Of a stretch of DNA of 64,000 nucleotides, positions 27,396 through 31,312 are shown in pieces. This DNA is from an uncultured delta proteobacterium (GTDB taxonomy: Bacteria > Myxococcota > Myxococcia > SLRQ01). Every line of letters starts with the position of its first letter. The stretch's first letter is position 1. The stretch spans positions 576,001 through 640,000 of the forward strand of contig CAVSGM010000001.1 in NCBI GenBank assembly GCA_963727485.1, read 5' to 3'. Under the pieces are notes generated by a model. That model was given only the letters and a program-made list of their open reading frames with translations, searched no databases and was not told the origin of the DNA. The position numbers and the translations under genes were made by a program.

Positions 27396-28262
27396 ATGAA
27401 GAAGGTTACCATCCAGACCCTCAGGCAGATGAAGCAGGCGGGCGACAAGGTCGTCATGGTCACCGCCTACGACGCCACCTTCGCCCGCATCCTCGACGAC
27501 GGCGGCGCCGACGTCCTGCTGGTCGGCGACTCCCTGGGCAACGTGATCCAGGGGCAGGACTCCACCCTCCCGGTCACCGTCGACCACATCGTCTACCACA
27601 CGGCCGCGGTGCGCCGGGGGACGAAGCGGGCGCACCTGGTCGCCGACATGCCCTTCATGAGCTACCAGGCCTCGGTCGACGAGGCGGTGAAGAACGCCGG
27701 CCGGCTCATGGCCGAGGGCGGCGCCGAGTCGGTGAAGCTCGAGGGCGGCGCCGAGTACGCCGAGGTGGTCTCGCGCATCGTCCGCGCCGGGATCCCGGTG
27801 ATGGGCCACCTCGGCCTCACCCCCCAGTCGGTCCACGCCCTCGGAGGCTACGTGGTCCAGGGGAAGACCGACGCCGCCGCCGAGAAGCTCCTCGCCGACG
27901 CGCAGGCCCTCGAGGCCGCCGGGATCTACGCCCTGGTCCTCGAGGCGGTGCCCACCGAGGTCGCCCAGAAGGTCACCGAGGCCCTCTCGGTGCCCACCAT
28001 CGGCATCGGCGCCGGGGTGGGCTGCGACGGCCAGGTGCTGGTCTGCTACGACCTGTTCGGCTTCAACCCCGACTTCAAGCCCAAGTTCGTCAAGCGCTTC
28101 GCCGACGGCTACCAGACCCTCCGGGGCGCGGTGGAGACCTACGCCGCCGAGGTCCGGGGCGGCACCTTCCCCGACGACGCCCACAGCTTCCACAAGCCCC
28201 AGGCGGTGCGGGCGGTGGAGGACGACCCGGGGAAGCTGTACGGGAGCGTCGCCGGGAAGTGA
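27396..28262 (+). CDS. panB: 3-methyl-2-oxobutanoate hydroxymethyltransferase
   Basis: [40 protein letters not shown]. Confidence 0.97.
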
Positions 28263-29201
28263 CCGCGCCGCGCGTCATCGAGACCCGGGCCGGGATCGCC
28301 GCCGCCTGCGCCGAGGCCCACCGGGCCGGACGCACGGTGGCGCTGGTCCCCACCATGGGCTTCCTCCACGACGGCCACGCCGCCCTGATGAAGGCGGCGC
28401 GGCCGCGTGCCGAGGTGCTGGTGGCGACCATCTTCGTGAACCCCACCCAGTTCGGGGCCGGCGAGGATCTCGATCGCTATCCGCGCGACCTCGAGGGCGA
28501 CCTCGCGGTGTGCGCGCCGGGAGGGCGTGGATCTCGTGTTCGCCCCGCCGGATCCCGCCGAGATGTACCCGGAGGGGTTCCAGACCTGGGTGGAGGTCGA
28601 GGAGACGACGAAGCACCTGTGCGGCGCCCGGCGGCCCGGCCACTTCCGGGGGGTGACCACCGTGGTCACCAAGCTCTTCAACCTGGTGCGCCCGGAGGTC
28701 GCGGTCTTCGGCGAGAAGGACTTCCAGCAGCTGGTGACCCTGAAGACCATGGCCCGGGACCTCGACATGGGCATCGAGGTCGTCGGGGTGCCCACGGTGC
28801 GCGAGGCCGACGGGCTGGCGCGGTCGTCGCGCAACGCCTACCTCGACGCCTCGGCTCGCGAGCGGGCGCTGGGCATCGTGCGCGGCCTCCGGGCGGCCCA
28901 GGCGGCGTTCGCCGACGGGGAGCGGCGCGCCGGCGCCCTGCGCGCGGTGGTTCTCGAGTCCGTGTCCGGCGGCGCCGACGAGATCGACTACGTGGAGCTC
29001 GCGGATCCGGTGACTCTGGCGCCCCTGGCGGCGGACGCCGAGTGTGGGGCCGAGACCCGGGCGCTGGTGGCGGCGTTCTTCGACAGCGCCGGCGGCCGCA
29101 CCCGCCTCATCGACAACGCGGCCCTCGGAGACACGAGCTCCATCGGTGGGGCCGCGGTTGACCCGCGTCCCGCGGGCGCGTCCCGGGGGGGCGCCCGATG
29201 A
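28259..29201 (+). CDS. panC: Pantoate-beta-alanine ligase; apparent frameshift near 28520
   Basis: [46 protein letters not shown] across two frames. Confidence 0.95.
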
Positions 29202-29671
29202 GCAAGGAGAAGCCAGGCGCCCCGAAGGGGCGGGTGGTGGCGCGCAACAAGGAGGCGCGCCGCCGCTGGGAGATCTCCGACACCCTGGAGGCGGGCCTGG
29301 AGCTCACCGGCACCGAGGTGAAGGCCATCCGCGACGGCAAGGTGCAGCTCGCCGACAGCTACGCCGTGGTCAAGGGCGACCGAATCTTCCTCCTCAATCT
29401 CCACATCGGCCCCTACGCGCCCGCCGGACCCTACGCCCAGCACCAGCCGACGCGGACCCGGCGCCTGCTGCTCAAGCGCGCCCAGATTGAGAAGCTCATC
29501 GGCCAGATGGCCCAGAAGGGCTACAGCCTGGTGCCCCTCGACGTGCACTTCCGCGGCGCCTGGGCCAAGGTCGAGCTCGGTCTCGCCCGCGGCAAGAAGA
29601 CCGAGGACCGCCGCGAGGAGATCAAGAAGCGCACCGCCGACCGCGAGATGGCGCGGGCGTTCAAGCGCTGA
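29198..29671 (+). CDS. smpB: SsrA-binding protein
   Basis: NKEAR, EAGLELTGTEVKAIR, RTRRLLL, LARGKK. Confidence 0.95.
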   Translation: MSKEKPGAPKGRVVARNKEARRRWEISDTLEAGLELTGTEVKAIRDGKVQLADSYAVVKGDRIFLLNLHIGPYAPAGPYAQHQPTRTRRLLLKRAQIEKLIGQMAQKGYSLVPLDVHFRGAWAKVELGLARGKKTEDRREEIKKRTADREMARAFKR

Positions 29672-29688
29672 GCGGGCGGGCTGGGGAC

Positions 29689-30006
29689 GCGGACGCCGGG
29701 TGATGCGGACGCCGGGTGATGCGGACGCCGGGTGATGCGGACGCCGGGTGATGCGGACGCCGGGTGATGCGGACGCCGGGTGATGCGGACGCCGGGTGAT
29801 GCGGACGCCGGGTGATGCGGACGCCGGGTGATGCGGACGCCGGGTGATGCGGACGCCGGGTGATGCGGACGCCGGGTGATGCGGACGCCGGGTGATGCGG
29901 ACGCCGGGTGATGCGGACGCCGGGTGATGCGGACGCCGGGTGATGCGGACGCCGGGTGATGCGGACGCCGGGTGATGCGGACGCCGGGTGATGCGGACGC
30001 CGGGTG
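29689..30006 (+). repeat. Perfect tandem array of the 16-bp unit GCGGACGCCGGGTGAT (19 full copies plus 14 bp)
   Basis: Read and counted directly; no spacers and no variant copies. Confidence 0.97.
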
Positions 30007-30026
30007 TCAGACCCGGATTGTAGAAT
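30005..30026 (+). promoter_or_regulatory. PafBC/RecA-NDp-like promoter TGTCAG-N10-TAGAAT, overlapping hairpin CCGGGT-GTCAG-ACCCGG (30000-30016)
   Basis: Exact spacing of the TGTCGG-N10-TANNNT consensus; 38 bp before the RAYT-like ATG. Confidence 0.6.
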
Positions 30027-30064
30027 CAGTGCTCAATCAGGTTGGGACCGATCGGGGGAATTCG

Positions 30065-30808
30065 ATGTCACGTCAGCAGCCGAAGCCGAAGCCGAAGCCG
30101 AAGCCGCACTCGCACTCGTCTCGACGCACGCGCAGCGCCCGTCGCTCATCGGGTGGCCGCAAGCAGCTCGAGCTGGAGCTGCGGACGTGGGGCGGTCGCC
30201 GGCGGGGCGCCGGCCGCAAGCCCGCCGGCGACCGGTCGGGCGTGTCCCACCGCCGCCGCCAGGCCGTCGCCTCCAGTCACCCTGTCCACGTCACCCTGCG
30301 CGTGCGCCGGCACGTGTGGAACCTGCGGGCCCGCCGGTGTCGGCGGATCCTCGAGGCGGCCTTCGCCTCGGCCCGCGAGCGGAACGGTCTGCGGCTGGTC
30401 CACTACTCCATCCAGGGCAACCACGTGCACCTGCTGGTCGAGGCCCGGGGTCGCGAGGCCCTCGCCCGCGGCGTCCAGGGGCTCTCGGTGCGCATCGCGC
30501 GGGGGCTCAACCGGCTGATGTCCGCCCGAGGCAAGGTGCTCTCGGACCGCTACCACGCCCACGTGCTCCGTACCCCCAAGGAGGTGCGCCACGCCCTGCG
30601 CTACGTCCTGCGCAATGCCGATCGGCACGGCCTCCGGTGGCGGACCGGACCCCGGGGGCCGAAGGTGGATCCCTGCTCCTCCGGGCGCTGGTTCGACGGG
30701 TGGAAAGGCGATCTGGAGCCCGAGTCCTCGCCCCGGCCGGTGTCTCCGCCCGGCACCTGGCTGCTTCGGGTGGGCTGGCGCCGCCACGGTCTGCTGCCCC
30801 TCGCGTGA
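30065..30808 (+). mobile_element. RAYT-like (IS200/Y1 HUH) tyrosine transposase/nuclease
   Basis: HVTLR, YSIQGNHVHLLVE (HUH), DRYHAHVL, ALRYVLRN (catalytic Tyr); basic N-terminus GGRRRGAGRKP; no tnpB. Confidence 0.85.
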
Positions 30809-30837
30809 CGGGGTCCCCTTGCGTGACGGGGTCCCCT
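30803..30837 (+). repeat. Direct repeat GCGTGACGGGGTCCCCT x2, overlapping the RAYT stop codon
   Basis: Copies at 30803-30819 and 30821-30837. Confidence 0.85.
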
Positions 30838-30899
30838 GCGCAACCGGGAGCCCGGCCCTTGCCAGGTGTCCTTCGCCCAGGTGCCATTCGGCATCGCTC

Positions 30900-30965
30900 G
30901 GCCGTGCCAAACGGCGAGCGTGGCCGTGCCAAACGGCGAGCGTGGCCGTGCCAAACGGCGAGCAT
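30900..30965 (+). repeat. REP-like 22-bp unit GGCCGTGCCAAACGGCGAGCGT x3, each containing a GCCGT-GCCAA-ACGGC hairpin
   Basis: Three tandem copies, the last with one mismatch. Confidence 0.9.
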
Positions 30966-30991
30966 GGCGCTTGCCGCCCCGGCCGACTCGC

Positions 30992-31312
30992 CTAGGTGCC
31001 CTTGAGCCCCCCGTGCTCCGGGCACGGGCACAGCTCCCGCAGGAACTCGAAGGTATAGATCCCGGTGTCGTGCCCGTCGGAGAACTTGAAGCCGATGGCG
31101 TACCCGCCGACCAGCGTCATGTCGGTCACGGCCGCGTCGAGGCCGTCGTGGAACACGTGGCCGCCACCGTGGCCCTGACAGCCGGCGCAGGGGCAGTGGC
31201 CCCGCAGGTAGCGCATGGGGTAGCGCGAGACGTGGCCGTCGCTCCAGGTGATCTGGACCTCCTGGCGGCCGCGCTCGGCGACGACGTCCTTGGGCTTCAC
31301 CAGCTCGCTCAT
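30992..31312 (-). CDS. DUF971 (GBBH-like N-terminal) protein
   Basis: WSDGH, LRGHCPCAGC, VGGYAI, FSDGHDTGIY. Confidence 0.9.
   Translation of the reverse strand: MSELVKPKDVVAERGRQEVQITWSDGHVSRYPMRYLRGHCPCAGCQGHGGGHVFHDGLDAAVTDMTLVGGYAIGFKFSDGHDTGIYTFEFLRELCPCPEHGGLKGT

What the first reader, a model, noticed from the sequence alone, without database searches (positions are those of the whole stretch)
29689..30967. RAYT-like HUH nuclease enclosed by three kinds of tandem/hairpin repeat, including a perfect ~20x16-bp array
Seen: right after smpB there are 19 full copies plus 14 bp of GCGGACGCCGGGTGAT. The last unit runs straight into a hairpin (CCGGGT-GTCAG-ACCCGG), so the unit contains most of that hairpin's left side. 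Then comes an intact HUH/Y1 gene with no tnpB, followed by 2x17-bp and 3x22-bp repeats. The 22-mers carry GCCGT-GCCAA-ACGGC, so hairpins on both sides share a GT-GYCAR-AC core. Known: RAYTs cut ssDNA at flanking REP hairpins and propagate REP/REPIN/BIME elements, usually as inverted pairs. Inference: here the enzyme may amplify short direct repeats next to its own recognition hairpin (nick-primed slippage or rolling circle), making a self-contained repeat-expanding locus unlike classical REPIN/BIME layouts.
Basis: partly seen in the sequence, partly recalled or inferred. Interest (0 to 1): 0.8.

Follow-up and report, generated by a model that had tools for sequence, protein, structure and literature searches.

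The report
Damage-promoter transposon with amplified companion repeat
This is one inserted copy of a widespread single-gene, single-strand-DNA transposon family that carries a predicted DNA-damage promoter, and the 20-copy repeat in front of it is likely a locally amplified piece of the family's own palindromic companion repeat; that the enzyme itself builds such arrays is possible but unproven.

Summary
The repeats and the gene are real. The gene is one of eight copies of a Y1/HUH (RAYT-like) family in this genome, inserted between smpB and a GBBH-like gene that lie 7–29 bp apart in two related genera. The left 'hairpin' overlaps a PafBC-type promoter, TGTCAG-N10-TAGAAT, also found before recA, imuA and lhr, 7 of 7 full-length copies and 25 of 74 homologue leaders. 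The 22-mer carries a GCC-ANNY-GGC box of the kind that is paired at Xre–RES operon starts. New: the 16-mer matches the arm of a 130-bp palindrome (14 copies, 10 loci; corrected p about 0.004). Nine of 10 palindrome loci lie beside a family tag, TGCYSAATCAAG, which also sits 24 nt behind the array. Long arrays are not a family trait: two sets of homologue flanks (129 and 77 loci) show no enrichment, and a pre-set test of 'arrays 5′ of the tag' gave 0 of 10. Best reading: REPtron-like mobile element whose own repeat was expanded locally, likely by slippage; enzyme-driven growth about 25%. The scan has noted RAYT-linked tandem arrays on other DNA. The array was not checked in reads.

The parts
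29198..29671 (+). smpB, left flank of the insertion (not part of the element)
   Evidence: Pfam SmpB E 2e-52; followed by the GBBH-like gene after 29 and 7 bp in G002 and G003
29672..29688 (+). 17-nt GC-rich lead-in, resembling the outer arm of the companion palindrome
   Evidence: seen by eye against the half-palindrome upstream of paralogue C2:718k; not tested statistically
29689..30006 (+). perfect 16-bp x 19.9 tandem array; unit matches the core of one arm of the 130-bp companion palindrome (17 of 19 nt to the closest arms)
   Evidence: 19.2 bits; all 25 other genome 19-mers at this score are arm-like; 2 of 20000 shuffles; 13 of 3000 after correcting for 77 windows
30000..30016 (.).
   Evidence: 10 of 200 shuffles fold as well
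30005..30026 (+). predicted PafBC-type DNA-damage promoter TGTCAG-N10-TAGAAT
   Evidence: matches tGTCgg(N10)tA(N3)T (PMC8635444); 15 genome hits at N10 against 0-4 at six other spacers; before recA, imuA, lhr; PafB and PafC orthologues in the genome
30030..30041 (+). family tag TGCTCAATCAGG (consensus YGCBSAWTCAAG), predicted enzyme recognition or left-end site
   Evidence: 41 of 126 homologue leaders against 1 of 93 controls; within 130 nt of 9 of 10 palindrome loci
30065..30808 (+). Y1/HUH transposase-like gene (P0001); H120, H122 and Y180 invariant; N-terminal RxWGGxRxGAGRKP and C-terminal WLLRxGWRRHG extensions
30797..30837 (+). 18-bp x 2.3 repeat across the stop codon; unique in the genome, no match to the palindrome
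30883..30915 (.). pair of GCC-ANNY-GGC boxes 23 bp apart, of the type found at Xre-RES operon starts
30900..30963 (+). 22-bp x 3 repeat: tandem copies of the second box and its flank; probably length-variable
   Evidence: 52-nt (22+30) pieces lying wholly in the repeat in 4 of 8 runs laid
30992..31309 (-). GBBH-like_N gene, right flank of the insertion (not part of the element)
   Evidence: Pfam E 2e-24; synteny in relatives

Best explanation
The 1.3-kb stretch is one inserted copy of a multi-copy, single-gene Y1/HUH element with a predicted PafBC (DNA-damage) promoter, and its 16-bp array is likely one arm of the element's own companion palindrome that was joined to the promoter by a deletion and then likely expanded head-to-tail by host replication slippage. 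Shown: insertion at an otherwise 7-29-bp gap, eight genomic copies, intact catalytic residues, the promoter motif, the family tag, and the match of the unit to the palindrome arm. Inferred: PafBC switches the gene on when ssDNA accumulates; the enzyme binds ssDNA at or near the tag, cuts and rejoins it through Tyr180, and so moves both the gene and the tag-plus-palindrome module (a REPtron/REPIN-like pair). Inferred: in sister copies the order is palindrome, box pair, promoter, tag, gene. Here the rest of the palindrome and the box pair are missing in front of the promoter, leaving one arm whose two GTG ends lie 16 bp apart, a ready substrate for slippage. The 22-mer likely arose in the same way from one box of an Xre-RES-type operator pair. 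The enzyme brings the repeat material and may seed the first duplication, but it is not needed to keep the arrays growing.
For: Empty site 29 and 7 bp in G002 and G003 against 1320 bp here. Seven further copies, 68-83% nt identity among the 7 full-length ones, one clade at SH-aLRT 95 in a quick tree. G009 holds 20 matches with pairs up to 90-98% identical at different sites. Family in 51 of 301 class genomes. Promoter motif before 7 of 7 full-length copies and 25 of 74 new homologue leaders and 12 of 30 recA genes; PafB with both DNA-reading arginines, and PafC, present. Unit matches the palindrome arm; palindrome loci carry the tag in 9 of 10 cases against 79 of 3000 random windows; 3 of 12 palindrome or half-palindrome loci lie within 700 bp of a family gene (p about 3e-5). 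No array enrichment in homologue flanks: upstream 2 of 85, downstream 1 of 97, controls 1 of 59, 1 of 76, 1 of 86, 0 of 59; upstream 4 of 70, downstream 1 of 74, controls 1 of 67, 3 of 72.
Against: Slippage alone does not explain why the two stringent non-coding arrays with most copies both lie upstream of family genes (2 of 12 arrays in 0.43% of non-coding DNA; p about 0.05 without the index case), nor arrays ending 9-29 nt 5' of the tag at five other sites. The deletion history is inferred from paralogues, not seen. The end of the unit also resembles the pre-promoter bases of two paralogues, so its origin may be mixed. The looser motif GTC-N12-TAnnnT is not enriched over other spacers (114 against 65-115). 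Element ends, target site and any activity are not shown; no RNA data.
Confidence: 0.55

Rival explanations
1. The enzyme itself builds the arrays: bound at the tag, it nicks a short way 5' of it, the 3'-OH primes synthesis, and a second cut and strand transfer add one unit per round, so tandem arrays of whatever sequence lies there grow on the 5' side of the tag after DNA damage.
For: Arrays end 24 nt (window), 9 nt (L081, 17 x 10.9), 29 and 21 nt (L085, 14 x 5.9 and 14 x 9.3), 21 nt (L316, 12 x 10.2) and 13 nt (C11, 11 x 3.6) 5' of the tag. In one search, 3 of 15 arrays were 5' and 0 were 3' (about 0.15 expected). Whole palindrome modules are tandem at 3 of 10 loci. A matching model exists for E. 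coli BIMEs (PMC3333891 passages).
Against: L081 and L085 were found after looking. Pre-set tests: 1 of 76 tag-like sites 5' against 0 of 78 3' (most sites were coding background); 0 of 10 arrays in 77 new loci, with low power; own genome 2 against 2, the 3' ones being coding repeats. Six of 8 copies here and nearly all homologues lack long arrays.
Confidence: 0.25
2. The array is an ordinary variable tandem repeat that arose by chance in a long GC-rich spacer; its likeness to the palindrome arm and its place next to the gene are coincidence.
For: The genome has 12 stringent and 39 looser non-coding arrays, most far from family genes. The 22-, 18- and 9-mers show no match to the palindrome.
Against: Corrected p about 0.004 for the 16-mer match; the other 25 genome 19-mers at that score are all arm-like; the array sits where sister copies carry the palindrome.
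Confidence: 0.12
3. The perfect 20-copy length is an assembly or polishing product; the real locus has fewer or less uniform units.
For: The array was not checked in reads, and 100% identity over 318 bp can result from consensus polishing (general knowledge).
Against: It lies inside a 1.25-Mb contig without N between unique, syntenic flanks. Exact pieces of the gene and flank exist in independent runs.
Confidence: 0.08

Closest known systems
RAYT / TnpA_REP REPtrons with REP, REPIN and BIME repeats (E. coli TnpA_REP, PDB 4ER8)
   Same: Same fold (best Foldseek hit, E 2e-6; profile hit E 5e-4 with HUH and Tyr aligned); no tnpB; linked to a dispersed, intergenic, long imperfect palindrome that forms tandem clusters, as REPINs and BIME-2 do.
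   Different: Multi-copy and self-spreading, whereas tnpA_REP is mostly single-copy with no evidence of mobility. All 109 aligned members score below the NF047646 cut-off judged by the query (43.8 against 80) and by the best member E 8e-17. Tyr motif is YxxxNA, not YxxxNP. The tag is a 12-mer 30-100 nt from the palindrome, not a GTAG at its foot. Only 14 palindrome copies. Damage-type promoter.
IS200/IS605 elements (TnpA_IS200; IS608, ISDra2)
   Same: Y1/HUH core (Foldseek E 4e-5), single-gene unit without terminal inverted repeats, many copies at unrelated sites.
   Different: 247 aa with long N- and C-terminal extensions against about 150 aa; no YxxxQ motif; NF033573 17.8 bits against cut-off 55; no conserved subterminal hairpin at the right end found.
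TnpA_Y1 subclasses 2.1 (TIRYT) and 2.3 of PMC6006769
   Same: Similar length (2.1 median 238 aa), NHVH motif, several divergent copies per genome, prevalence of 2.1 in delta-proteobacteria.
   Different: No YxxxNP, no W[EQ]/FQ motif (this family has DRY/DRF), no C-terminal HTH hit in Pfam, no terminal inverted repeats.
PafBC regulon (sigma adaptation, mycobacteria; motif also noted in M. xanthus promoters)
   Same: Exact motif and spacing; pafB-pafC pair; sites before recA, imuA, lhr, and looser ones before uvrA and a RadA-like gene.
   Different: Here the motif heads a mobile HUH gene. One search for PafBC with transposase and insertion sequence listed only an Acinetobacter WYL paper.
Xre-RES toxin-antitoxin operator
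   Same: The box pair lies at the start of the genome's Xre-RES operon and of 5 of 11 Xre-RES loci, 0 of 10 other Xre loci; a 4:2 complex binding two sites is described (PMC12204516 passages).
   Different: This genome has 17 pairs at 23 bp and 4 at 22 bp, many beside HUH genes or between convergent genes; 10 strict sites against 0-1 in 300 class genomes. I did not see the P. putida operator sequence.

Membership tests
TnpA_Y1 (HUH/Y1) superfamily | HUH motif plus one catalytic Tyr on the Y1 core fold | tested here: met
   H120, H122, Y180 invariant in 109 sequences; Pfam Y1_Tnp over cut-off; model pLDDT 85.8 matches 4ER8 and IS200 TnpA
TnpA_Y1 (HUH/Y1) superfamily | ssDNA cleavage and strand transfer | not testable with these tools
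   needs biochemistry
RAYT / TnpA_REP (class 2) | YxxxNP tyrosine motif | tested here: not met
   YxxxNA in 61 of 109; NP not among the ten commonest; definition
RAYT / TnpA_REP (class 2) | NCBIfam NF047646 curated cut-off | tested here: not met
   43.8 bits against 80; all 109 members match only weakly
RAYT / TnpA_REP (class 2) | gene flanked by a cognate palindrome that is also dispersed in intergenic DNA | tested here: met
   in this genome only: 14 copies at 10 loci, 3 of 12 loci or half-loci next to family genes; no full-length match in 300 class genomes; long palindromes upstream of 14 of 107 homologues against 4 of 92 and 8 of 105 controls
RAYT / TnpA_REP (class 2) | GTAG-type tetranucleotide at the foot of the hairpin | tested here: inconclusive
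   arms carry GATG before a short CGG..CCG stem inside the long stem; no GTAG; function untested
RAYT / TnpA_REP (class 2) | single copy, not self-mobile | tested here: not met
   8 copies here; up to 20 in G009 with 90-98% identical pairs
IS200/IS605 | YxxxQ motif, short core-only TnpA | tested here: not met
IS200/IS605 | conserved subterminal hairpins at both ends | tested here: inconclusive
   left hairpin weak and not kept in paralogues; a GACCC..GGGGTC stem in some G009 leaders (by eye); no shared right end
TIRYT / subclass 2.1 | terminal inverted repeats and C-terminal HTH | tested here: not met
   no terminal inverted repeat among the 25 longest pairs shown; no HTH Pfam hit
PafBC-dependent promoter | tGTCgg(N10)tA(N3)T with PafB/PafC in the genome | tested here: met
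PafBC-dependent promoter | PafBC-dependent, damage-induced transcription | not testable with these tools
   needs RNA or reporter data
Xre-RES operator | paired palindromic boxes at the xre-res start | tested here: met
   sequence and position only: 5 of 11 against 0 of 10 (21 of 25 loci examined); binding untested

The most novel reading that the evidence does not exclude
An undescribed, very large clade of self-mobile HUH elements is wired into the PafBC DNA-damage response and writes short tandem arrays on the 5' side of its 12-bp tag, copying whatever sequence lies there. It would be a stress-induced tandem-repeat generator that also spreads Xre-RES operator pairs through the genome.
Probability: 0.22. 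Interest if true: 0.8.

Novelty: new variant of a known kind. Interest (0 to 1): 0.52.

Why it matters
How REP/BIME arrays grow is still open, and the enzyme-driven models are untested in vivo. This family offers a compact test: a defined tag, a companion palindrome, natural arrays just 5' of the tag, and a predicted promoter that can be switched on by DNA damage. Independently of the array, it is a large Y1 clade (982 clusters at 50% identity with E<1e-30) that fits none of the motif definitions I checked. It combines IS-like self-spread with RAYT-like companion repeats and often sits under a PafBC-type promoter. I found no description, which cover open-access full text only.

Tried and rejected
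Shared GT-GYCAR-AC hairpin: rejected. 16-mer or 22-mer as exact dispersed REPs: unique to the locus in the fixed rotation; only other rotations revealed the palindrome. 22-, 18- and 9-mers as palindrome pieces: no match (863, 1638 and 1429 of 3000 shuffles as good). Tandem arrays as a family trait: no enrichment; controls are mostly coding and many loci come from short-read assemblies, which can hide arrays. 'Arrays lie 5' of the tag': seen post hoc, not replicated in pre-set tests. Tag as a host regulon box: 0 of 30 relatives' recA leaders have it. Tag copy number against gene presence: the 12-mer is mostly coding background, so the comparison was uninformative; a refined 17-mer hit only 4 of 281 genomes. 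Box pair as one ssDNA hairpin: box orientations vary and spacers are unrelated (by eye), which fits a dsDNA operator better. Palindrome outside this genome: only short partial hits. Rfam: 0 hits in three loci. Viral contigs: 0 hits for the 22-mer and for two 16-mer units. No RNA holder listed. Small-share runs were laid; no contig spans the locus. ESM Atlas gave no result. My early note that no homologue has the PafBC motif (5 of 104 with a loose form) was overturned.

Full report
1. Observation. The array is perfect, period 16, 29689-30006, 19.9 copies, and the exact unit occurs only here in the 5.55-Mb, 73% GC genome. The ORF 30065-30808 gives an intact 247-aa protein with Pfam Y1_Tnp over cut-off. 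The downstream repeats have periods 18 (not 17) and 22. The two small hairpins fold only slightly better than shuffles (10 and 8 of 200).

2. The protein. H120, H122 and Y180 are invariant in 109 homologues (109 of the 151 proteins held, picked by length). The model (pLDDT 85.8) matches E. coli TnpA_REP 4ER8 best (E 2e-6), then IS200/IS605 TnpA, and a profile aligns HUH and Tyr to 4ER8. It misses the NCBIfam cut-offs for RAYT (43.8 against 80) and IS200 (17.8 against 55). Its Tyr motif is mostly YxxxNA (61 of 109), neither the YxxxNP of class 2 nor the YxxxQ of class 1 in PMC6006769 (abstract, passages and part 1 of section 15 read). The family is large: 982 clusters at E<1e-30 and 51 of 301 class genomes.

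3. It is a mobile, multi-copy element. The genome has seven further copies, one internally deleted. The seven full-length ones are 68-83% identical and form one clade (SH-aLRT 95, quick tree of 97 rows). G009 has 20 matches; among the 19 regions fetched, pairs reach 90-98% identity at unrelated sites, and shared sequence is limited to about 100-130 bp of leader plus the ORF. In 2 of 4 related genera smpB and the GBBH-like gene are 29 and 7 bp apart, against 1320 bp here; in the other two the spacing or orientation differs. None of the four has this family.

4. The left 'hairpin' is a promoter motif. TGTCAG-N10-TAGAAT (30005-30026) matches the PafBC consensus tGTCgg(N10)tA(N3)T (PMC8635444 passages). 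TGTCRG-N10-TAnnnT occurs 15 times, against 0-4 at six other spacers. Seven of the 15 head the seven full-length copies. Others head recA (beside a LexA-like box), imuA behind lexA, and lhr; a looser form precedes uvrA and a RadA-like gene (18 hand-picked downstream genes of about 80 loose sites were scanned, 5 were repair genes). The loose form is not enriched over other spacers. A pafB-pafC pair is present (E 4e-21 and 1.5e-29 to 7P5X chains). The motif precedes 12 of 30 relatives' recA and 25 of 74 new homologue leaders, though a loose form was in only 5 of 104 of the first, mostly metagenomic set; kin are not independent. PafBC sites in M. xanthus promoters were mentioned before (PMC9705874 passages); passages of PMC12288472 gave no motif.

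5. The 22-mer holds an operator-type box. GCC-ANNY-GGC boxes come in pairs 23 bp apart directly upstream of five paralogue promoters, with a degenerate pair at a sixth. The window has none upstream but one pair downstream (30883, 30906), whose second box is repeated twice more. The genome has 17 pairs at 23 bp and 4 at 22 bp, and 4 at all other spacings from 11 to 40; a strict pattern finds 10 sites here and 1 each in 3 of 300 class genomes. One pair overlaps the start of the Xre-RES operon, and pairs at 21-23 bp mark 5 of 11 Xre-RES loci and 0 of 10 other Xre loci (4 partial loci left out). Two-site binding by Xre-RES is described (PMC12204516 passages), but I did not see its sequence. Why this genome has so many pairs is unexplained. 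In 4 of 8 runs laid, a 52-nt piece (22+30) lies wholly in the 22-mer, at depth 1.9, 10.2, 8.1 and 5.1, without flanks in the last three. I infer longer arrays in some populations; coverage is very low. Run X8 has a 151-nt piece with 5 differences joining the repeat's end to the GBBH-like gene.

6. The 16-mer comes from a companion palindrome. Flank comparison showed a 130-bp imperfect palindrome (z -6.1) with 14 copies at 10 loci, tandem at three, plus half copies. One rotation of the array matches an arm at 17 of 19 nt. A matrix from 20 arms scores it 19.2 bits; only 25 other 19-mers in the genome reach that, all arm-like; 2 of 20000 shuffled units and 7 of 20000 intergenic 16-mers do. Correcting for all 77 windows of the element gives 13 of 3000. 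The palindrome belongs with this gene family: 3 of 12 loci or half-loci lie within 700 bp upstream of a copy, and 9 of 10 loci have the family tag within 130 nt (one mismatch allowed, three windows each; background 79 of 3000 per window). The tag, YGCBSAWTCAAG, is in 41 of 126 homologue leaders against 1 of 93 controls and lies at 30030-30041. The palindrome has no full-length match in 300 class genomes.

7. Does the enzyme make arrays? Against: flanks of 129 homologue loci show arrays upstream in 2 of 85 and downstream in 1 of 97, controls 1 of 59, 1 of 76, 1 of 86, 0 of 59; 77 new loci gave 4 of 70, 1 of 74, 1 of 67, 3 of 72 (12 of 89 dropped as already seen). For: the two stringent non-coding arrays with most copies in this genome (16 x 19.9, 9 x 12.3) both precede family genes, 2 of 12 in 0.43% of non-coding DNA by my own rough gene calls (p about 0.05 without the index case). 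Arrays end 9-29 nt 5' of the tag at L081, L085 (twice), L316 and C11. In one search the count was 3 of 15 arrays 5' against 0 3', but found post hoc. Pre-set tests gave 1 of 76 against 0 of 78, 0 of 10 arrays and 2 against 2. The pattern is suggestive, not established.

8. Mechanism. Most likely (0.55): damage induces the gene through PafBC; the enzyme acts on ssDNA at the tag and moves the gene and tag-plus-palindrome modules; at this copy a deletion left one arm beside the promoter and slippage expanded it. All steps after the sequence anatomy are inferred. Enzyme-driven growth 5' of the tag (0.25), chance repeat (0.12) and assembly effect (0.08) are the rivals.

9. Comparison and novelty. 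It works like a REPtron with REPINs: tandem REPIN clusters and tandem REP arrays are known (PMC3116915 passages), as are nick-primed and rolling-circle models of BIME amplification (PMC3333891 passages; also cited in 10.1101/2024.07.17.603846 passages). It is not a member of the RAYT class by motif, cut-off or copy number (PMC8266576 abstract and introduction; PMC5581495 passages), nor of IS200/IS605 or TIRYT (PMC3733652 passages). The family, its tag and its PafBC-type promoter were not found (listings and abstracts' starts only). No supplements were read; those of PMC6006769 and PMC5581495 could list members. Earlier scan notes report RAYT-linked tandem arrays elsewhere; I did not test them. 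Verdict: new variant of a known kind, interest 0.52.

Noticed in passing
G000:C2:1119793 and 20 further pairs: An Xre-RES-type operator pair is multiplied in this genome only (17 pairs at 23 bp, 4 at 22 bp), with unrelated spacers, beside HUH genes, between convergent genes and inside genes. Either an expanded regulon or a spread by the element; unexplained.
   Followed up: partly
G000:C1:180826-180862: This recA promoter has a LexA-like box, the PafBC motif and the family tag at the same spacing as the HUH leaders, while 0 of 30 relatives' recA leaders have the tag; the element's leader may have been exchanged with it. The gene reads frameshifted near codon 277 in the assembly.
   Followed up: partly
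L044, L052, L054, L061, L071, L160, L161, L166, L171 and others: Repeats like IS481-family ends (label recalled, not tested) lie just upstream of 13 of 115 homologues against 3 of 107 controls, some with a divergent MPW[KN]E start; possible target preference.
   Followed up: partly
L085 (metagenome contig): A homologue surrounded by at least six tag-bearing modules on both sides, two with 14-bp arrays just 5' of the tag: the best natural example for a bench test.
   Followed up: partly
G000:C4:87974 and 88013: Two tags 39 bp apart, in frame inside a transposase-like ORF.
   Followed up: no
G000:C11:159695-159744: Box pair, PafBC motif and tag-like sequence with no HUH gene behind them: a likely leader remnant.
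   Followed up: partly
G000:C1:641190-643057, just past the window's end: A second, more divergent pair of adjacent WYL genes; not compared with PafBC structures.
   Followed up: no
window 28259-29201: panC appears split over two frames (ORFs 28259-29161 and 28527-29201): frameshift or assembly error.
   Followed up: no
G000:C1:105817-106344, C11:298717-299062, C2:1689784-1692256: Other arrays: 127 bp x 4.1, 110 bp x 3.1, and a 74-bp-period CRISPR-like array.
   Followed up: no
window 30078-30106: A 6-bp x 4.8 in-frame repeat encodes PKPKPKPKP at the protein's N-terminus.
   Followed up: no
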